A stretch of 63,568 nt of DNA. Source: Alloascoidea hylecoeti. Taxonomy: Eukaryota. The stretch is taken from contig BCKZ01000008.1 in NCBI GenBank assembly GCA_001600815.1, positions 744,433 through 808,000 of the forward strand. Direction: 5' to 3'. Of the stretch, positions 5,445-63,568 are shown piece after piece. A model generated the notes under the pieces. It was not told the DNA's origin. It ran no database searches and was given only the letters and a program-made list of their open reading frames with translations. Numbering within the stretch: position 1 is the first letter of the stretch; every line of letters starts with the position of its first letter. Position numbers and translations under genes: made by a program.

Positions 5445-6788
5445 ATGAGTCTTTCACAGCACTCCTCAGGTATGTTCTAACAAAGTTATTCATTTACCAT
5501 TTTGAAAGAATTTAAACATAAATATTTTGTTGTTTTCCTTTTTTTTAGAGGTTGTTTGTCTTCCAATCGTTCGAAATCTTCATTGAAAAATCTGATATTA
5601 ATTATATTTATAGTACTTTTTAAAGGACTGCCTATTCAACGGTTAAATTTTTTACGTAGTTTCAGCTCATCTTCCATAATTAGAAGCAATACTAAGAATA
5701 CTGTGTCTGGTAGACCAAACAATCATCGAAAATCTGGATCCAAATCATCTACCAAAACCGAACCAAAACTTTTAGTTGATGCACAATCAGGAAAGTTTTC
5801 CTTAATAGGAGAAGACAGTCCATTTAATCAATCTAAAGAATTACGAGAAGAATTTCTTTCATTTGTTCAAGAATTTGGTTTTAACTATAGAACACCGAAA
5901 AATGCCTCAAAATTCTCATCAGATTCAAATATACTCAAATACTTGAATCAAACAGCTGAAGATGAGGCATATTCTGATGCCGAATTACACGTTAGGCAAA
6001 AACATCATGCTGATACTATGGGACAATTAGGTTCTTATATCACTGATGTTTATGAACCATATAAAAGTCTCAATCACCCCGTTGATCCTACTGAGTTGAC
6101 AATTTCACACCTTTTAGCATCTGGAGCACATCTAGGGCATCACAAGACCCAATGGAGACCTTCAACACAGACATATATCTATGGTGTTCATAATGGTATT
6201 CATATCATTGATTTAGAGAAAACAACAACATACTTGAGACGCGCAGCAAAAGTCATTGAGGGAGTTTCAGAAAAGGGAGGACTTATTTTGTTTTTAGGTA
6301 CTAGAGAAGGTCAAGCACGTATTGTTCAAACTGCTGCTGAACGTTGTGGTGGGTATTATGTTTCATCTAAGTGGGTTCCAGGGACTCTTACGAACAATTT
6401 CAATATTAGTGGTCATTGGGAAAGAAAAACAGTTAATATGAAAGATGAAACAGTAAATGAAGAAATAGATGAAATTGGTCGAGAGAGTGTGATTAAGCCT
6501 GATTTACTTGTAGTATTAAATCCAAAAGAGAATGATAATGCACTTCGGGAAGCTATGGCTACAGGTATTCCAACAATTGGTATTATTGATACGGATTCAG
6601 AGCCATCTCTGGTAACGTATCAGATTCCAGCAAATGATGACTCGCTACGAACTGTTACTTTAATTGCAGGTGTTCTTTCAAAAGCAGCACAAAAGGGCAG
6701 AGATACACGATATGAAATGTATAATAAACATACTAAGAAACCAGAAGATATACTTGAAGATTCAACATTCCAAGCACTAAAAGCCTGA
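5445..6788 (+). CDS. MRP4: Mitochondrial ribosomal protein uS2m; probable intron 5470-5613
   Basis: S2 motifs GAHLGH, YIYG..GIHIIDL, WVPGTLTN, GIIDTD, IPANDDS. GTATGT...TAG intron joins MSLSQHSS to an Arg/Ser-rich presequence. Confidence 0.93.
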
Positions 6789-13275: not shown

Positions 13276-13740
13276 ATGTCACCTAACAAGCAAATGTTAA
13301 ATTTTTAGAACCCCAAGATTGGTAAAACAGGAAATGACTGCTATACAAAAGAATTTAAAAAAGAGATTATTGTATATCGAGATTAACCACAATGGAATTT
13401 TTTATCAAGAAAATACTAAATCCCACTATATTTGGTTAGATTTATCAGGATTATCAGGTAAAATTTCAAATGGTGATCCAAAAAATATGGATCGAACTAT
13501 ACATTGTAGTTAGAAGTAGAGGTCAGCCAAGACAAGTAATAAATGAAATGCGTAGATCAATCTGATCAACTATATACTCACAATCATTGTTAATAGTCTT
13601 AAGGAATCTATCACCAAGTGGTTCTAAATTGCTTATAAGATCTTTTGTTAGAGTTACACGCTACGACGAACTGATGTCAATTAATTTCTAATAAGACTTA
13701 AAAACTTTTATTTCGAATATAAATACTTTTATTTAACGTT
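13276..13740 (+). mobile_element. Possible pogo/CENP-B-like transposase relic
   Basis: A stop-riddled frame reads YTKEFKKEII..LSRKY*IP..LEVEV, and later ITKWF..YTLRRT, loosely like the pogo tandem HTH. Weak. Confidence 0.3.
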
Positions 13741-15960
13741 GACTAAATTTCGGCCAATAATAATTCTAAATTCGTGGTTGTGCTGAGAATCTACTTTTCT
13801 GATTTACTTCTCATAACTCTTGGTTAGCCTCTACTGTACTAAGTTCCGTCGCGTTTACTTCGAAGTTTACTCTACTTAAGGCATCTGCTGCTGAGTTGGT
13901 TTTACCAGGTATATACTTAATGGTAAAATTAAATTCCGCCAGGAAGTCTATCCACCTAGCAATTCTGCTTTTATTCAGTTGCTTTTGTTGGTGAATATAT
14001 TGTAATGAATTATGGTCTGTCTGTAACACAAAGTGGTTGTCCTTTAAGTAATATTCCCACTCCTTCAGTGCAAACACTACTGCCATAAATTCTTTCTCCC
14101 TTGTTGGATAATTCAGTTCTGCTTTCTGTAGTTTCTTTGACGCGTAGCCCACTACTCCTATCAGTTTACCATCTATTGTCTTTTCCTCTAGTGTAGCCCC
14201 TAATGATATATCGCAAGCGTCTGTAGTCACTATAAATACTCTATCACCTTGTTGTGGTATTTGTGGTACTACTAAAATTGGTTCAGACGACAATTTCTGC
14301 TTTAGTTCTTCAAAAGCTATGTCGCATTCTCCGTCCCACTCTCTGGCTTTGTTCGCGAATTCTATCATTGGTTTTGCTATCTTCGAGTACTGTGCGATAA
14401 ATCTTCTGTAGTAGTTTGCTAGTCCTAGAAATGATTGTGCCTCTTTATCGCTTTTGGGTACCGGCCATTCCCTAATGGTGGCTACTTTCTTGTTATCCGG
14501 CATGATCCCGTTGCTTGTGATTTTATGTCCTAAAAAGTCTAATTCCTTCAACATAAATGCACATTTCTTCTTCTTCGCTCGTAACTTGTTGGCTCTAAGT
14601 TTCTCCAATACCAGTTTTACATGTTCTTCGTGCTCTTTCTCGTTCCTTGAGTATATCAAGATGTCATCTAAATACACTATCACAAATTTGCCTTTAAACT
14701 CTGCTAACACATCATTCATAACGTACTGAAAGGTGGCCGGGGCATTGGTTAACCCAAATGGCATTACATTCCATTCAAAATGTCCCTCTTTCGTTGTGAA
14801 GCCTGTTTTTGCTCTATCTGATTCATTTATAACAATTTGGTGATAGCCCGACATCAAATCTAACTTCGAGAATACTTTCGCACCATGTAATTGATCTAAC
14901 AGGTCATTAATTACTGGTAAAGGGTACCTATTCTTAATCGTTTGGTTGTTAAGAAGTCTATAATCAACACATAACCTCATGCTACCATCTTTTTTCTTCA
15001 CAAACAATACCGGTGCCGAATATGGGGACTGTGACCTGGATATTGACCCATTCTCCAACAGCTCTCTTAGCTGTCGTTGTAATTCTTCATTATCCTTATA
15101 TGACATTCTATAAGGAGCCCTAGCCGGTGGTTTAGACCCTTCCATTATCTCTATGTTATGATAAAACTGGTGCTGTCTTTCCGGTACTCCTTTTGGTTGT
15201 ATATTTGTCACAACGTCTTCATATCCGCTCAGGAATTTAGGTAGCTCTGGTTCTGGTTTGGTTGATTCTATTACTTCGTTCACTTCCAACGGTTCTTCGC
15301 CTATGTCTTCAACTTTTAGTTGTACTCGTCCCCAGCTATTGTGTCTAATTTCTTTCAAAAATTCTTTTACACCAAGGGTTTGGCACTTAACTGACTCAGG
15401 TTCATTACTCCTGAGGTTGGGCTCACAGGTTCTACGATTAGTGAATAGTCTGCTTATATCTTTCAAAACTTCAAATACTTTATTATTATTTTTCTTTACT
15501 TCTTTATTTAAATTTTTAACTTCTTTACTTAAAATTTTAACTTCTTTAGTCTCTTCTTTCTTTTCTATATCTTTAACTATTTCTTTTGATGTGACAAGGC
15601 TTGGTTTTCTATTTTTCATGCTACTAAAATCGCATACATTATTTTTACATATAATTTTACTTGCCATATTTTCCTTTATAATCAGGCCCTTAACTCTGGG
15701 TTCTGATTCTTCTTTTCCTTTGGCATCTTGTTTCTTTTCTAAATCAATATTTTTTCTTCCACTCGCCATTGTGGGTCTTTTTTGGTTTTTATAATTTTTT
15801 TTGGTTTTTATATTTTTAACATTTTTTTCTATTTTTTCTGCCTTGTCTTTTGCATCATTCTTTTCTCTTGTATAACTCTCTATTTTATTTAGGTCTATTC
15901 CTTTGATCTCTGGCTGTTCCATGCTTAAAATCTTCTTTGGGTCTTCATCTTTCTGTTCTT
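13596..15960 (-). repeat. Left arm of 2365-bp inverted repeat
   Basis: Reverse complement of 16928-19292; paired positions sum to 32888. Breakpoints read directly, and all paired ORF translations are identical. Confidence 0.97.
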
Positions 15961-16927: not shown

Positions 16928-19292
16928 AAGAACAGAAAGATGAAGACCCAAAGAAGATTTTAAGCATGGAACAGCCAGAGATCAAAGGAATAGACCTAAA
17001 TAAAATAGAGAGTTATACAAGAGAAAAGAATGATGCAAAAGACAAGGCAGAAAAAATAGAAAAAAATGTTAAAAATATAAAAACCAAAAAAAATTATAAA
17101 AACCAAAAAAGACCCACAATGGCGAGTGGAAGAAAAAATATTGATTTAGAAAAGAAACAAGATGCCAAAGGAAAAGAAGAATCAGAACCCAGAGTTAAGG
17201 GCCTGATTATAAAGGAAAATATGGCAAGTAAAATTATATGTAAAAATAATGTATGCGATTTTAGTAGCATGAAAAATAGAAAACCAAGCCTTGTCACATC
17301 AAAAGAAATAGTTAAAGATATAGAAAAGAAAGAAGAGACTAAAGAAGTTAAAATTTTAAGTAAAGAAGTTAAAAATTTAAATAAAGAAGTAAAGAAAAAT
17401 AATAATAAAGTATTTGAAGTTTTGAAAGATATAAGCAGACTATTCACTAATCGTAGAACCTGTGAGCCCAACCTCAGGAGTAATGAACCTGAGTCAGTTA
17501 AGTGCCAAACCCTTGGTGTAAAAGAATTTTTGAAAGAAATTAGACACAATAGCTGGGGACGAGTACAACTAAAAGTTGAAGACATAGGCGAAGAACCGTT
17601 GGAAGTGAACGAAGTAATAGAATCAACCAAACCAGAACCAGAGCTACCTAAATTCCTGAGCGGATATGAAGACGTTGTGACAAATATACAACCAAAAGGA
17701 GTACCGGAAAGACAGCACCAGTTTTATCATAACATAGAGATAATGGAAGGGTCTAAACCACCGGCTAGGGCTCCTTATAGAATGTCATATAAGGATAATG
17801 AAGAATTACAACGACAGCTAAGAGAGCTGTTGGAGAATGGGTCAATATCCAGGTCACAGTCCCCATATTCGGCACCGGTATTGTTTGTGAAGAAAAAAGA
17901 TGGTAGCATGAGGTTATGTGTTGATTATAGACTTCTTAACAACCAAACGATTAAGAATAGGTACCCTTTACCAGTAATTAATGACCTGTTAGATCAATTA
18001 CATGGTGCGAAAGTATTCTCGAAGTTAGATTTGATGTCGGGCTATCACCAAATTGTTATAAATGAATCAGATAGAGCAAAAACAGGCTTCACAACGAAAG
18101 AGGGACATTTTGAATGGAATGTAATGCCATTTGGGTTAACCAATGCCCCGGCCACCTTTCAGTACGTTATGAATGATGTGTTAGCAGAGTTTAAAGGCAA
18201 ATTTGTGATAGTGTATTTAGATGACATCTTGATATACTCAAGGAACGAGAAAGAGCACGAAGAACATGTAAAACTGGTATTGGAGAAACTTAGAGCCAAC
18301 AAGTTACGAGCGAAGAAGAAGAAATGTGCATTTATGTTGAAGGAATTAGACTTTTTAGGACATAAAATCACAAGCAACGGGATCATGCCGGATAACAAGA
18401 AAGTAGCCACCATTAGGGAATGGCCGGTACCCAAAAGCGATAAAGAGGCACAATCATTTCTAGGACTAGCAAACTACTACAGAAGATTTATCGCACAGTA
18501 CTCGAAGATAGCAAAACCAATGATAGAATTCGCGAACAAAGCCAGAGAGTGGGACGGAGAATGCGACATAGCTTTTGAAGAACTAAAGCAGAAATTGTCG
18601 TCTGAACCAATTTTAGTAGTACCACAAATACCACAACAAGGTGATAGAGTATTTATAGTGACTACAGACGCTTGCGATATATCATTAGGGGCTACACTAG
18701 AGGAAAAGACAATAGATGGTAAACTGATAGGAGTAGTGGGCTACGCGTCAAAGAAACTACAGAAAGCAGAACTGAATTATCCAACAAGGGAGAAAGAATT
18801 TATGGCAGTAGTGTTTGCACTGAAGGAGTGGGAATATTACTTAAAGGACAACCACTTTGTGTTACAGACAGACCATAATTCATTACAATATATTCACCAA
18901 CAAAAGCAACTGAATAAAAGCAGAATTGCTAGGTGGATAGACTTCCTGGCGGAATTTAATTTTACCATTAAGTATATACCTGGTAAAACCAACTCAGCAG
19001 CAGATGCCTTAAGTAGAGTAAACTTCGAAGTAAACGCGACGGAACTTAGTACAGTAGAGGCTAACCAAGAGTTATGAGAAGTAAATCAGAAAAGTAGATT
19101 CTCAGCACAACCACGAATTTAGAATTATTATTGGCCGAAATTTAGTCAACGTTAAATAAAAGTATTTATATTCGAAATAAAAGTTTTTAAGTCTTATTAG
19201 AAATTAATTGACATCAGTTCGTCGTAGCGTGTAACTCTAACAAAAGATCTTATAAGCAATTTAGAACCACTTGGTGATAGATTCCTTAAGAC
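16928..19292 (+). repeat. Right arm of 2365-bp inverted repeat
   Basis: Mirror copy of 13596-15960. Confidence 0.97.
16966..19077 (+). CDS. 703-aa ORF: K/E-rich linker plus Ty3/gypsy RT-RNase H (no Gag, PR or IN)
   Basis: ATG-initiated and identical to the last 703 aa of the minus-strand Pol. Expression unknown. Confidence 0.7.
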   Translation: MEQPEIKGIDLNKIESYTREKNDAKDKAEKIEKNVKNIKTKKNYKNQKRPTMASGRKNIDLEKKQDAKGKEESEPRVKGLIIKENMASKIICKNNVCDFSSMKNRKPSLVTSKEIVKDIEKKEETKEVKILSKEVKNLNKEVKKNNNKVFEVLKDISRLFTNRRTCEPNLRSNEPESVKCQTLGVKEFLKEIRHNSWGRVQLKVEDIGEEPLEVNEVIESTKPEPELPKFLSGYEDVVTNIQPKGVPERQHQFYHNIEIMEGSKPPARAPYRMSYKDNEELQRQLRELLENGSISRSQSPYSAPVLFVKKKDGSMRLCVDYRLLNNQTIKNRYPLPVINDLLDQLHGAKVFSKLDLMSGYHQIVINESDRAKTGFTTKEGHFEWNVMPFGLTNAPATFQYVMNDVLAEFKGKFVIVYLDDILIYSRNEKEHEEHVKLVLEKLRANKLRAKKKKCAFMLKELDFLGHKITSNGIMPDNKKVATIREWPVPKSDKEAQSFLGLANYYRRFIAQYSKIAKPMIEFANKAREWDGECDIAFEELKQKLSSEPILVVPQIPQQGDRVFIVTTDACDISLGATLEEKTIDGKLIGVVGYASKKLQKAELNYPTREKEFMAVVFALKEWEYYLKDNHFVLQTDHNSLQYIHQQKQLNKSRIARWIDFLAEFNFTIKYIPGKTNSAADALSRVNFEVNATELSTVEANQEL

Positions 19293-58688: not shown

Positions 58689-59437
58689 ATGTCCGATATT
58701 GAAACACTTGAAAAGAAGACCGCTGGGTCAAGTTTACGGGATTCAAGTACTACTACCAGCCCTGCAAAAGTTGCTACTATTGAGACAGCCGACAAGAAAG
58801 AAGCTGTTACTAAATCAGAAAAGACCGAATGAAGATAAATCAACTGCACCATTCACATCAAAAAGGCCTTCTGAGCCAGAAGAAAAACCCATATTGACTC
58901 AAAAGAGGAGTTCACAGTTAAACGTCCTCTTAATACAAAATGGACCCTATGGCATAAAAAACCAAAGTCGGAAAAGTCGGAAAAGTCGGAATCCTGGAAC
59001 GACTTGTTAAAACCGTTGAAGAATTTAGGGCAGTTTACAACAATATTTCCAGGGTTAACGATTTACCATTTAAAGCAGATTATCATCTATTTAGGAAAGA
59101 TGTTAGACACGAATGGGTAGATTAAGTTAATGCCCTGGGCAAATGGGCCTTCCAGTTCAAAGATAAGAGAAGGATTAATATTGATGATATTTGGCTCCGG
59201 GCCATGTTAGGTGCTATTGGTGAAAACATTGAGAAAAACGCAAAATAAATCACAAATGTTGTAATAAACGTTCGTCAAAACCATTTCAGAGTTAGTTTAT
59301 GGAGGGAATGGTTAGCTCCTATTGGAAAGATGTTTAAGAAGAAGGTATTAAGTTTATCTGATAATGAAAATTTAGATTTTTTCAGTTACACCGAGTCGGA
59401 AAAAAACCCCAGAGCCGGGGCTTCTTTCTTCGTTTAA
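58689..59437 (+). pseudogene. eIF4E (CDC33-like) pseudogene, no introns seen
   Basis: PLNTKWTLW..SWNDLL; ADYHLFRKDVRHEWVD*; GKWAFQF; IDDIWLRAMLGAIGE; VVINVR..RVSLW, with stops, frameshifts and deletions. Confidence 0.88.
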
Positions 59438-59637
59438 GAAAATTAAAATCAGTTTTAGTTTTGATATAATCTTTTAATCTATTAATTAAACGCTATAATT
59501 GAGATAGACCAAGAAGATGATTCTCATTCCTCTAGCAAATACATGTGATCACATGACTAACATAGAAATGTAATGTTGTAAAAAAAATTTAGATATTTGA
59601 TATTTGGGATATATTTATATTAATATTTGGAATTATT

Positions 59638-61992
59638 ATGAGTTTAAATCTATTACTTAAATCAAAGTCAATATTTAGGGATAATATTAAGTATCAATCA
59701 TTTTCAAAATTGACATCTATACGACAGTATGCATTATTAAGAGAGTCCATTACAAGAACGAAAAAAAGCTGGAAATCTAATGATGAGTATGAAAGAAGAC
59801 CTGGTAATATTATTGATCTTAAAAAAAATCCATCAAAATTGATTAATGAAAAGGGTAATAATCATAATAATAATAACTATAAAAAAACCTCAGCCTCAAA
59901 GGGGAGATTACCTTTTGCTGAAAGAAGAAAAGGGTTTGTTTATGGCACATTGGTTACAGATTCAGATAAATTAACTAAAACTGGGAAACAAATTGATGTG
60001 ATTTTATCAGAAGATTTGAAACAAAAAGGTTTTAGATCCAAACTTTATGGCCGTCTTGATGAAAATGACATTGAAAATGAAAATGATCATGAATATGAAT
60101 TTGAAGAAGGAGATCGTTTATCATCAAGAGAACGAAGAGTACATCCTGATACACTATATGGTCGAGGCTTAAGAGGCACAGTAACTGTTCCGGAAGAAAT
60201 ATCTAAACATATTGGTGATGTTTTATTAAGAGATACCATTCCTGGTGATCTACGTTTAGCCGCTTCAAGGGTTTATGTTTCTTTACATTCTGAATCCCAA
60301 AAGGCCTCTACCACTGAAATTGAAGCAAAAGCCCAAATTGCTGGTTTATTTATTCAGGATTATGCTATGATATATAGGGTATTAAGTGATTTAAAAAAGC
60401 TTCAAGGTAGAGACTGGCTTCCGAACAAAGTTTTAGATGTTGGGTTTGGTCCATCAACAGGTTTAGCAGCATTTAATGAACTTTTCAAGGATGAAATAGT
60501 AAAAACAAACAAATCTATTCAAAAGGAATCTCTTATCTTCGGTGTTAAGAAAATGCAAAGTTATGCAAAAGATATTTTAAATACTCAAAAAGAAGCCGAA
60601 GAAAAATTTCCATCATCATTTTTAGATCATTTTCCAAAACAAATTGCTAGAAAAAGTTATAATTTAATTATTGCTTCACATCAACTTTTAAGTGATGAAA
60701 ATAAATTCCCTTATGGAGTTGATGATTTAACAGAAATTTTATTAAAATATTTAGAACCAAATGGTATAATAATATTTGCTGAAAGAGGAACACCTGAAGG
60801 TTTTGAATGCATATCGAGAGCAAGGCAATTTATGATTAGGCCCGAAAATCATGATCAAGAGATGGGTAAGATTCCACGACCATATCTTCGAGGAGAGAGG
60901 CGAAACAATCTACAATCCACCATAGATGATATTGAGCCAGAAGCTGTGAATATAGAACAAGTGGCACCAGAACAAACAGCTACTGAAAATGACCCCAAAA
61001 CAACTGAAAAAATAGAAGAAACTGAAATAGAAGCAGTTGAAACTGAGGAAACAACCGAAGCAGCTGAAGAAACTGTCAAAGGTGTTGGCAACTTTAATTT
61101 ACGAGTTCTGGCGCCATCAGTTCATCACCACGTTGAGACTTCACAATTAAGCGATTTAGAAGTTTACAAGGCGCCAGGAGCAAATAAACTAAAATGGGTT
61201 AAATTCACCCAAGCTGTTAATAGACCAAAATTTACTCTTGAATTGAAAAAGGGCGCTCAACTAGCAACAGAATGGGAAACCCCAGACAGTGGTTATGGAA
61301 AAAAAGGATTAGCAAGTGGTGGATCAGGTCGTCCTGGGGGGCTTGATTATGAAGTTGCTTCATTCAGTTATTTAGTTGTTGAAAGAATGTCAAATGAAAT
61401 AGAAGTTAAAAAAGAAATCAAGAGGTTAAGAGAAGATAAAACTGGTGAACTATATAAAACTTCATTTTTGACTCCACGTTATTTCCATTGGCCACGAATC
61501 ATTGATCAACCTAACAAACGGGGTAAACATGTTAATTTAGTAGTTTCAACTATAGAAGGAACCACTGAAAGGTGGACTATTCCTAAATCATTTGGCAACC
61601 AACAATATCATGATGCAAGGAAGGCATGTTCAGGAGATTTATGGCCCCTTGGAGCGAAAACAAAAGTCCTTTGCGGAGCTCAAAATGCACAAATAAAGAT
61701 AAAAATTGAAAAACGTGAAGCAGAAAAAGCCAAAAGGCAACAACTTAGAAAAGAAAGAGAAGAAAGGGAAGGTAAAATTAATAATCTTGCATCTAAGGGA
61801 ATTAAAATATCCGATGAAGTGCTAAGAGAACTAGAACTTATTCAGGACCCCCGTGATTTAAGTTTGATTGATCTGAAACTGGGAAAGAGTGTAAAAGACC
61901 GTCTCGGTGAATCCGATGATGAATTTTCGAAAGAGTTAAGAAGAGTTCAAAAAAATATGTTGAAATATAAAAAGGATGATAAAAGTGATTAA
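59638..61992 (+). CDS. RSM22: Mitoribosome SSU assembly methyltransferase-like protein (Rsm22/METTL17)
   Basis: VLDVGFGPSTG; ERGTPEGFECISRAR..IRPEN; GKIPRP; SFSYL; WPRII; WTIPKSFG.Q.YHDARKA..GDLW. Confidence 0.92.
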   Translation: MSLNLLLKSKSIFRDNIKYQSFSKLTSIRQYALLRESITRTKKSWKSNDEYERRPGNIIDLKKNPSKLINEKGNNHNNNNYKKTSASKGRLPFAERRKGFVYGTLVTDSDKLTKTGKQIDVILSEDLKQKGFRSKLYGRLDENDIENENDHEYEFEEGDRLSSRERRVHPDTLYGRGLRGTVTVPEEISKHIGDVLLRDTIPGDLRLAASRVYVSLHSESQKASTTEIEAKAQIAGLFIQDYAMIYRVLSDLKKLQGRDWLPNKVLDVGFGPSTGLAAFNELFKDEIVKTNKSIQKESLIFGVKKMQSYAKDILNTQKEAEEKFPSSFLDHFPKQIARKSYNLIIASHQLLSDENKFPYGVDDLTEILLKYLEPNGIIIFAERGTPEGFECISRARQFMIRPENHDQEMGKIPRPYLRGERRNNLQSTIDDIEPEAVNIEQVAPEQTATENDPKTTEKIEETEIEAVETEETTEAAEETVKGVGNFNLRVLAPSVHHHVETSQLSDLEVYKAPGANKLKWVKFTQAVNRPKFTLELKKGAQLATEWETPDSGYGKKGLASGGSGRPGGLDYEVASFSYLVVERMSNEIEVKKEIKRLREDKTGELYKTSFLTPRYFHWPRIIDQPNKRGKHVNLVVSTIEGTTERWTIPKSFGNQQYHDARKACSGDLWPLGAKTKVLCGAQNAQIKIKIEKREAEKAKRQQLRKEREEREGKINNLASKGIKISDEVLRELELIQDPRDLSLIDLKLGKSVKDRLGESDDEFSKELRRVQKNMLKYKKDDKSD

Positions 61993-63568
61993 GATGATAA
62001 GAATGACTTCTTCTAAAATGTCTAGATTTTCTACCATAACTATTAATAATGTACATATGTTATAGGAGAATAAAATGTAGATAGGCATACCGGTAAGTAG
62101 GTTATAATATAAATAATAACCAAGTCATAATCATTAATATCTAAAGTAATATTTATAGTTGCGTACATACACAAATATTTGCAATTGGTTCAATATTTAA
62201 TGTTTCTTTAGCTGAATATAAGTTGAGACCTGATGACAAGTGTAGTAATATAATGACAAAGAACCCACTTACATATTTCGTATGTATTTATATGGTTTCG
62301 TAGAGTTAATAGCAATGATATAATGATGCATATATGAATATTTTCATATATTATATATATTTCAATATCTCATATTCATCTTCACCATTAAAAGGTTGTC
62401 ATACTCATTGATATTTTGATTTTATTTTGAACTTAAGCGTCATAACTACTATTTTAATTCGCAATCGATATCAATTACTTATAACCAGGTCTTCATTCAT
62501 CTCGATTGATATACAACAGAATGGAAGGTAATATTTTGGCCACTTCTTATCAATTTGTCCCATTTACCCAGATCAATAAACTTCGAATGGATGGTTCGAA
62601 CTCTTTGCAATTCGAAGGTAAAAAGTCCTGCCCCAAATATATGCCCTTTGGTATAATCAATAACCATAGTCTAGATATCGGTAATCAGCAGGAGAGGCTT
62701 AAAAATGGCATGCATATTTCAATTGATCATGAACCAGACCAAGGTACACATTTGAATAAGAAGATAGACTGCAAGTTTGGTCATGATTCCCATCAGAATT
62801 CGAAGGGAAATGAATCACCTGAATATACATATTATTAAGTTTTAAATATATATTGTATTAAAGTTCAAAAAGCCTGTGCACCAAAAATCCAATCGACTCT
62901 TTCTAAGAGTGTAATATATAGAATATCCAACATATTGATATATTAATATGCATATATACATTTTTTGCATGCTCTTGAATTATAGGATAGGTTACTATTT
63001 TACCTTGAAAATTTGAACCCTTCTCAATTTAAAATAAAAATATATCTGCAGCAATCATCTTCTAGTTCATGAATCATACCTAAAACTGGGAGATTGCGTT
63101 TTCATTAAATCCTTAAGACTTTCAGTACCAATTTTAGCAATATAAAATATAAGCCTATAGTATAGGTTTACCTGACTGGAATCGTGCATCTGCTATCGAG
63201 TGCCTACAATCGATAATCATTCTTTCGCAATTGATAGGCTTATATACATTAAAACACAATAACATAGAAATAGATAGATATCGCTAGTTTTTAATTTTAC
63301 ACAGTTTGAATAGATACAGAAAACTTATTCGTAGTTTCATAAAATATAGATCATATTAATCAAGTATTCAACCAATCATAATATTTAATCGAATTTTCCC
63401 AAAAATATTTTCCTTTCAGCTATTAGTAGTCTCATTACAGCTTGAAAATTTGCAATACGTATAGACTTCTCGATAGTTAAGTTATGTGCATTATTTTCTT
63501 TTAGATAATTATTACAATATAACTGTCCTTGTGAAATAGCTTGACTTTGAAGGTCTGAGGAGAAAACT

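What the first reader, a model, noticed from the sequence alone, without database searches (positions are those of the whole stretch)
61105..61575. Rsm22/METTL17 has lost all four [4Fe-4S] cysteine ligands
Known: METTL17/Rsm22 binds a 4Fe-4S cluster through APCPH..CP, a C-x-F, and a later Cys after the H-V motif, proposed as an Fe-S checkpoint for mitoribosome assembly. Seen: these positions read APSVHHHVET, KWVKF and HVNLVVST, while neighbouring motifs (FSYL, WPRII, YHDARK, GDLW) are conserved. Inference: a naturally cluster-free or His/metal-swapped Rsm22.
Basis: partly seen in the sequence, partly recalled or inferred. Interest (0 to 1): 0.7.

Follow-up and report, generated by a model that had tools for sequence, protein, structure and literature searches.

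The report
Yeast Rsm22 without iron-sulfur ligands
A budding yeast's only copy of the mitochondrial ribosome-assembly factor Rsm22/METTL17 is intact but has lost all four cysteines that hold its supposedly indispensable iron-sulfur cluster, and other yeast lineages have lost them independently, which offers natural variants for testing whether the cluster is a checkpoint or just a structural rivet.

Summary
Confirmed. Window 59638-61992 encodes an intact 784-aa Rsm22. The four [4Fe-4S] ligands (S. cerevisiae C373/C379/C400/C513) read Ser494/Glu500/Val521/Ser637, while 71 of 76 other strongly conserved positions are kept. It is the only RSM22 found in the genome. A contig set from a separate study has the same bases, and codon checks argue against a genetic-code artefact. 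The 'His swap' is weak: the histidines sit where the family already has them. New here: the loss is recurrent. Of 280 scoreable family sequences 265 have CCCC. Ascoidea/Saccharomycopsis (Y-C-L-L/I/M), a Nakaseomyces protein (Y-D-I-M), Henningerozyma blattae (C-S-I-C) and another Saccharomycetaceae protein (C-D-I-C) also lost 2-4 ligands, needing at least five changes on the tree. A 2025 paper states all family members have the four Cys. Best reading: a working, cluster-free assembly factor whose pocket is held by ordinary side chains (0.65); a single-metal site is the main rival (0.2). Function and metal content are untested. This scan had not noted it elsewhere.

The parts
59638..61992 (+). 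RSM22/METTL17 orthologue, 784 aa, single uninterrupted ORF (P0001)
   Evidence: Pfam PF09243 E 4e-23; 8d8j_0 E 3.3e-83; model matches 8d8l_0 at Z 49.2, rmsd 1.9 over 424 residues
59638..59772 (+). Basic N-terminus (10 R/K, 2 D/E in 45 aa), probable mitochondrial presequence (inferred)
   Evidence: composition only; no targeting predictor run
60430..60462 (+). SAM-binding-like motif VLDVGFGPSTG, same degenerate form as yeast ILDVGYGPATG
60808..60825 (+). Cys391 (aligns to variable I319 column) to Arg396 (= S. cerevisiae Arg324, cluster-adjacent, invariant); Ala321 equivalent is Ser393
   Evidence: Arg324 role from PMC11046306 section 13
60931..61077 (+). Acidic low-confidence insert (about residues 432-480) before the ligand loop
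   Evidence: pLDDT < 50; similar acidic inserts in other yeasts
61117..61119 (+). Ser494 in place of ligand Cys373; preceding Pro493 (cis-Pro372 equivalent) kept
61123..61131 (+). His496-His497-His498; first two are family consensus, not replacements of Cys
61135..61137 (+). Glu500 in place of ligand Cys379 (following Pro-Leu also changed to Thr-Ser)
61198..61200 (+). Val521 in place of ligand Cys400
61489..61503 (+). WPRII, start of the OB-fold domain, conserved
61546..61548 (+). Ser637 in place of ligand Cys513 (the inter-domain ligand)
61606..61644 (+). YHDARK ('LYR'-equivalent segment) and GDLW, conserved

Best explanation
This is the organism's working Rsm22: it is imported into mitochondria and binds the head of the assembling small ribosomal subunit as in S. 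cerevisiae, but without a [4Fe-4S] cluster. In the canonical protein the cluster staples the ligand loop of the methyltransferase-like domain to the OB-fold domain. Here that job is most likely done by ordinary side chains: Val521 packs where Cys400 was, Glu500 supplies a negative charge for the retained Arg396 and His496, and Ser494/Ser637/Ser393 hydrogen-bond. Its maturation would then not depend on the late ISC pathway, so it cannot act as an Fe-S checkpoint. SHOWN: orthology, loss of the four Cys, single copy found, conservation of the rest, recurrence in other yeasts. INFERRED: import, function, absence of any metal, and the roles of the replacing residues.
For: Ligand columns S/E/V/S. 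71 of 76 non-ligand positions conserved in >=90% of 149 canonical sequences are kept; three of the five misses (A321, P380, L381 equivalents) are next to ligand or cluster-contact residues (canonical median 75, but that set defined the positions). One locus only in four genome searches. The assembly holds cox1 fragments with in-frame TGA on small contigs and the window encodes a ribosomal S2-family protein, so mitochondrial translation is presumably needed; RSM22 loss gives respiratory deficiency in S. cerevisiae (PMC12375894). Convergence: in all 10 other sequences that lost two or more ligands plus this one, Cys400 became L/I/V (11 of 11); Cys379 became D/E in three separate lineages; Cys373 became Tyr in both Ascoideales and Nakaseomyces; Cys513 became L/I/M in those. 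Bulky hydrophobic replacements fit cavity filling, not metal binding. Model confidence over the site 90-96 and match to solved Rsm22 at rmsd 1.9. Two Isa-family genes are present, so this is not a loss of the delivery pathway. Precedent: clusterless MutY arose several times and keeps function through H-bond networks (PMC12631127).
Against: No expression, localisation, metal or complementation data. Human METTL17 with all four Cys changed to Ser is less abundant and fails to rescue (PMC11046306 section 11), so compensation elsewhere is required and is not identified. Unlike the Ascoideales and Nakaseomyces proteins, this one has small polar residues (S, E, S) at three of four sites, which fill a cubane-sized cavity poorly and leave His496/Glu500 free for a metal. 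The AlphaFold model was built from an alignment dominated by cluster-bearing homologues, so it says nothing about stability without the cluster, and atom distances could not be read. The protein's end branch is long (1.36-1.68 against medians of 0.42-0.73), which could be faster evolution or only lack of sampled relatives. No close relative was found for dN/dS.
Confidence: 0.65

Rival explanations
1. The cluster was swapped for a single metal ion (Zn or Fe) bound by His496, Glu500 and His497 or His498, possibly with water; the C-D-I-C and C-S-I-C proteins would be Cys/His/Asp zinc-site intermediates on the same path.
For: His375 lies within cluster distance in the yeast structure and is kept; Cys379 became an acid in three lineages; a third His is present here (5 of 149 canonical sequences have it); the trypanosome site was first modelled as Zn with Cys/His ligands (PMC8171064).
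Against: No Cys column became His; HH is ancestral (130 of 149); His375 is Asn in 2 of the 6 Ascoideales-type proteins; Val521 and Ser637 remove the ligands that bridge the two domains; the trypanosome Zn was re-assigned as Fe4S4 (PMC11785013).
Confidence: 0.2
2. The gene is decaying or has been relieved of its assembly role, and the Cys loss is relaxed selection.
For: Long end branch; Cys-to-Ser METTL17 is non-functional in human cells; no RNA evidence obtained.
Against: Intact 784-codon frame; 71 of 76 conserved positions kept with losses concentrated at the cluster site; only copy found; a neighbouring true pseudogene (eIF4E) shows stops, this gene does not.
Confidence: 0.06
3. An Fe-S cluster is still bound, through relocated Cys (391, 664, 679) or non-Cys ligands.
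For: Cys391 is on the helix that carries Arg396; Ser, Glu and His can each ligate single irons in known clusters (recalled).
Against: Cys391 aligns to a variable column (T16, S15, R9, I7 of 55), five residues before Arg396 and so probably on another helix face (inferred); Cys664 and Cys679 are in variable C-terminal columns; Val521 cannot ligate; a cluster with no thiolate at the canonical site has no precedent that I recall.
Confidence: 0.04
4. Artefact: assembly error, a non-standard codon read as Cys, or a canonical paralogue missing from the assembly.
Against: Identical bases in X4 from another study; TCA also encodes Ser651 (Ser in 49 of 55 homologues) and TGT/TGC are used at 13.7 per 1000 codons in ten window ORFs; the other two sites are GAG and GTT; Pro-Leu after Cys379 changed as well; the one hit of a PCxHxxxCP DNA pattern is a 44-aa chance frame (control also 1).
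Confidence: 0.04

Closest known systems
S. cerevisiae Rsm22 (PDB 8D8J/8D8K/8D8L, 8OM2) and human METTL17 (8CSP-8CSU)
   Same: Same domain order and fold (Z 49.2, rmsd 1.9, 424 residues, 39% identity to 8d8l_0), same degenerate SAM motif, cis-Pro, His375, Arg324, WP, YHDARK and GDLW equivalents.
   Different: None of the four cluster ligands (S/E/V/S); CPL is ETS; longer N-terminus and a 50-residue acidic insert.
Rsm22 of Ascoidea rubescens (XP_020049464.1), Saccharomycopsis crataegensis (XP_064852275.1), a Nakaseomyces species (XP_070908221.1), Henningerozyma blattae (XP_004179640.1), CAL9734563.1 and Naumovozyma dairenensis (XP_003669291.1)
   Same: Public annotated proteins that also lack ligands: Y-C-L-L, Y-C-L-I, Y-D-I-M, C-S-I-C, C-D-I-C, S-C-C-C. 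None found discussed as such in the searches run.
   Different: Different replacement residues and separate branches; a window+Ascoideales clade is rejected (p-AU 0.008). The Nakaseomyces and Ascoidea proteins have a new Cys at the S452 column, which the window protein lacks.
Clusterless MutY / MutYX (PMC12631127)
   Same: A structural [4Fe-4S] cluster thought indispensable was lost several times and function kept by side-chain networks (abstract and passages).
   Different: Unrelated family; there function and structure are shown, and the cluster motif is remodelled; here the loop length is unchanged and function is untested.

Membership tests
Rsm22/METTL17 family (PF09243) | Sequence match above the curated cut-off | tested here: met
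   82.7 bits against cut-off 23
Rsm22/METTL17 family (PF09243) | Methyltransferase-like domain followed by OB-fold domain, as in solved Rsm22 | tested here: met
   Foldseek top 4 hits are yeast Rsm22; Z 48-49
Rsm22/METTL17 family (PF09243) | Nested among fungal Rsm22 orthologues, single copy | tested here: met
   trees; genome searches
Rsm22/METTL17 family (PF09243) | Mitochondrial location and binding to small-subunit precursors | not testable with these tools
   only a basic N-terminus
Rsm22/METTL17 family (PF09243) | Needed for mitochondrial translation | not testable with these tools
   no genetics; indirect: cox1 fragments in the assembly
[4Fe-4S]-binding Rsm22/METTL17 (Fe-S checkpoint) | Four Cys ligands at 373/379/400/513 | tested here: not met
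   S/E/V/S
[4Fe-4S]-binding Rsm22/METTL17 (Fe-S checkpoint) | Second-shell Pro372, His375, Arg324 | tested here: met
   P493, H496, R396
[4Fe-4S]-binding Rsm22/METTL17 (Fe-S checkpoint) | About 4 Fe per protein, 400-420 nm band, late-ISC dependence | not testable with these tools
   needs biochemistry
His-ligated mononuclear metal site | Three or four N/O/S ligands converging in space | tested here: inconclusive
   candidates H496, H497, H498, E500 exist in sequence; His are ancestral; model distances not available
Ascoideales (CUG-Ser2) host clade | CUG read as Ser; gene groups with Ascoidea/Saccharomycopsis | tested here: not met
   CTG at L491 sits in an L/I/V column in 55 of 55; clade rejected, p-AU 0.008; definition from PMC11182611

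The most novel reading that the evidence does not exclude
Budding yeasts have discarded the Rsm22 Fe-S cluster at least five times and build mitochondrial ribosomes independently of late Fe-S delivery; a natural cluster-free orthologue placed in S. cerevisiae would uncouple mitochondrial translation and cytochrome oxidase from Isa1/Isa2/Iba57 or frataxin depletion, showing that the 'checkpoint' is a removable property of one structural site and giving a residue map for an Fe-S-independent METTL17.
Probability: 0.35. Interest if true: 0.8.

Novelty: new variant of a known kind. Interest (0 to 1): 0.63.

Why it matters
[quoted passage not shown] Natural ligand-free orthologues are counter-examples to the universality claim and supply the missing control: a version that should work without a cluster lets one ask directly whether Rsm22 maturation is the sole link between Fe-S supply and mitochondrial translation. 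The Nakaseomyces protein is 53% identical to S. cerevisiae Rsm22, close enough for a swap.

Tried and rejected
Genetic-code artefact (TCA as Cys; CUG as Ser): rejected by codon-to-column comparison (the MCM4 motif identities used as a second check are recalled). Cys-bearing paralogue: none with PF09243, two canonical orthologues as queries, or a motif pattern. Shared origin with Ascoideales: rejected. Shared origin with Nakaseomyces: NOT rejected by the AU test (p 0.098, log-likelihood 50.65 lower, quick LG+G4 tree), although starred branches separate them; the third AU test (Nakaseomyces+Henningerozyma+P0031) did not finish. The careful tree did not finish; all trees are quick trees with the ligand columns left in. 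Sulfur-sparing through loss of sulfate assimilation: ATP sulfurylase and PAPS reductase are present, so not supported for this organism. Loss of late ISC delivery: two Isa-family genes present; a Caf17/Iba57 C-terminal match is just under the cut-off (24 against 25.7 bits), a hint only. Close relatives in JGI metagenomes: 592 pattern matches, none confirmed. Expression: no RNA holder listed; RNA run X7 did not cover the gene. ESM Atlas gave only Rsm22 clusters below 0.9. Full-length L-INS-i alignment timed out. Literature: five searches listed no paper describing Cys-less Rsm22; subscription papers are not covered.

Full report
Observation. The flagged stretch lies in one uninterrupted ORF, 59638-61992 (+), 784 aa. 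It matches Pfam Rsm22 at 82.7 bits (cut-off 23) and the solved yeast Rsm22 8d8j_0 at E 3.3e-83. PMC11046306 (section 13 read) names the yeast cluster ligands as Cys373, Cys379, Cys400, Cys513, with cis-Pro372, His375 and Arg324 nearby. Pairwise and profile alignments map the ligands without gaps to Ser494, Glu500, Val521 and Ser637 (codons TCA, GAG, GTT, TCA). Pro493, His496 and Arg396 are kept. The three Cys in the protein (391, 664, 679) fall in other columns.

Is the sequence real? Contigs of four runs were laid on 59400-62200. X1 spans it in one piece and X3 nearly so, both with no differing letter, but both are flagged as possible sources. X4, from another study and not flagged, covers 59400-61425 and 61505-62200 with no difference, which includes all four codons. 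The RNA run X7 did not cover the gene. So Cys, Ser and Leu appear to be read in the standard way.

Is there another copy? The own genome (24.8 Mb, 136 contigs) gave this locus alone with PF09243, with a Kuraishia orthologue and with S. cerevisiae Rsm22 at E up to 10. A degenerate pattern for PCxHxxxCP gave one hit, equal to its control, in a 44-aa frame. These searches score best candidates only and the assembly may be incomplete. The genome has two Isa-family genes, ATP sulfurylase and PAPS reductase, cox1 fragments with in-frame TGA on small contigs, and the window encodes a ribosomal S2-family protein. So late Fe-S delivery, sulfate assimilation and mitochondrial translation all seem to be in place.

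How unusual is it? I scored the four columns in all 287 distinct family sequences held: the query, the hits, the best 150 of 526, the best 120 of 201, and cluster members (some near-duplicates). Seven lacked one or more columns (fragments or gene-model gaps: P0058, P0085, P0095, P0119, P0151, P0175, P0177) and were dropped. Of 280, 265 read CCCC. The other 15 are: the window protein (SEVS); six Ascoideales-type proteins (YCLL x3, YCLM x2, YCLI), two of them named Saccharomycopsis crataegensis and Ascoidea rubescens; a Nakaseomyces protein (YDIM; genus); Henningerozyma blattae (CSIC); two near-identical Saccharomycetaceae-clade proteins (CDIC); Naumovozyma dairenensis (SCCC); two unnamed Serinales-clade proteins (CCCS); and P0140 (CCCY), a 337-aa fragment that I take for a gene-model error (inferred). 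Among the 101 more distant hits, 95 are CCCC, 5 unscoreable and 1 is P0140, so in this sample clean losses are confined to budding yeasts. The last search was seeded with Cys-poor sequences, so the proportions are not an unbiased rate. Paralogues were not checked in those other species.

How many times? In three quick trees the window protein branches alone, between the Dipodascales-like group (with Nadsonia) and the remaining yeasts, separated from the latter by a 99 branch. That position, and CUG=Leu, fit a deep lineage such as Alloascoideales or Sporopachydermiales (orders from PMC11182611, passages); this is a lead, not an identification. Holding it with the Ascoideales proteins is rejected (p-AU 0.008). 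On a 64-row tree loss of two or more ligands needs 6 changes, at least 5 forced by starred branches, and any loss needs 8. Ascoidea joins Saccharomycopsis but not 58, hence 5 or 6. Against this: holding the window protein with Nakaseomyces was not rejected (p 0.098), a further test did not finish, the careful tree did not finish, and the window branch is long. Since distant homologues are CCCC, the changes are best read as losses.

Is the rest under selection? Of 76 non-ligand positions conserved in at least 90% of 149 canonical sequences, the window protein keeps 71 (canonical median 75, lowest 50). Three of the five misses are the A321, P380 and L381 equivalents, beside the cluster site. The damage is local, as expected if the cluster went and the job stayed. 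An AlphaFold2 model from an 82-sequence alignment has mean pLDDT 76.4, with 90-96 across residues 491-530 and 96 at 631-640; it matches yeast Rsm22 at Z 49.2, rmsd 1.9 over 424 residues (Foldseek). The Nakaseomyces model gives pLDDT 84.5 and Z 53.1, rmsd 1.4. Both models lean on cluster-bearing homologues and do not show stability without the cluster.

What replaces the cluster? The replacements converge: Cys400 is L/I/V in all 11 sequences that lost two or more ligands; Cys379 is D/E in three lineages; Cys373 is Tyr in two; Cys513 is L/I/M in two; second-shell A321 or S452 change in 13 of the 14 loss sequences tabulated (each at least 90% conserved in canonical ones). I infer hydrophobic filling plus an acid that partners the invariant Arg324, which would otherwise face an anionic cluster. 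A single metal held by His496, Glu500 and a neighbouring His is still possible, the more so as this protein has small polar residues at three sites. Cys391 is on the Arg396 helix but in a variable column.

Comparison with print. PMC12375894 (passages, Discussion, and part 1 of 2 of the supplement) says all family members contain the four Cys, and its fungal alignment of ten species holds no exception. PMC11046306 (passages, sections 11 and 13) finds the four-Ser mutant unable to rescue. PMC8171064 (passages) calls the OB-fold Cys fully conserved. PMC11785013 (passages, section 5, supplement search) says the Cys are conserved in 'most' of 126 homologues without naming exceptions, so some may have been seen. 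PMC9892005 (passages) calls the cluster an architectural cofactor. PMC12191369 (passages) reports that Rsm22 overexpression offsets Yfh1 depletion. Five searches listed no description of a Cys-less Rsm22; subscription journals are not covered. The nearest precedent in kind is clusterless MutY (PMC12631127, passages).

Verdict. A true Rsm22 orthologue that fails the defining test of the Fe-S-binding form. Most likely a functional, cluster-free assembly factor (0.65); single-metal site 0.2; decay 0.06; relocated or non-Cys cluster 0.04; artefact 0.04. New variant of a known kind. Interest 0.63: it contradicts a stated universality and gives a direct test of the checkpoint model, but nothing functional is shown and repeated cofactor loss has precedent in other families.

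Noticed in passing
window 59006-59374 (+), frames broken from about 58575: Broken eIF4E gene directly upstream of RSM22: PF01652 match E 7.7e-24 with 2 internal TAA and frame shifts; two stop-free full-length copies and one divergent open frame lie on other contigs.
   Followed up: partly
window 13596-15960 and 16928-19292: Two 2365-bp arms, 100% identical, in inverted orientation, carrying retrotransposon protease/RT/RNase H coding sequence; a very recent inverted duplication or an assembly artefact.
   Followed up: partly
P0258 residue 457; P0024 residue 587: The Nakaseomyces and Ascoidea proteins each gained a Cys at the conserved S452 column, and S452 is changed in 10 of 14 ligand-loss sequences: possible second-shell covariation or an alternative ligand.
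   Followed up: no
P0024 (Ascoidea rubescens Rsm22), SAM motif: SAM-like motif is further eroded (ILVTEQGPATG), and P0031/P0180 read VLEVSHGPGTG.
   Followed up: no
P0031/P0180 (CAL9734563.1), P0229: C-H-D-C and C-H-S-C residue sets look like possible single-zinc intermediates between the cluster and the metal-free state.
   Followed up: no
window 6018-6788 (+): Ribosomal S2-family gene, probably mitochondrial uS2m/MRP4 (recalled).
   Followed up: no
G000 contigs C53, C65, C78, C80, C84: cox1 lies in at least seven pieces on small contigs, suggesting an intron-rich, fragmented mitochondrial assembly.
   Followed up: no
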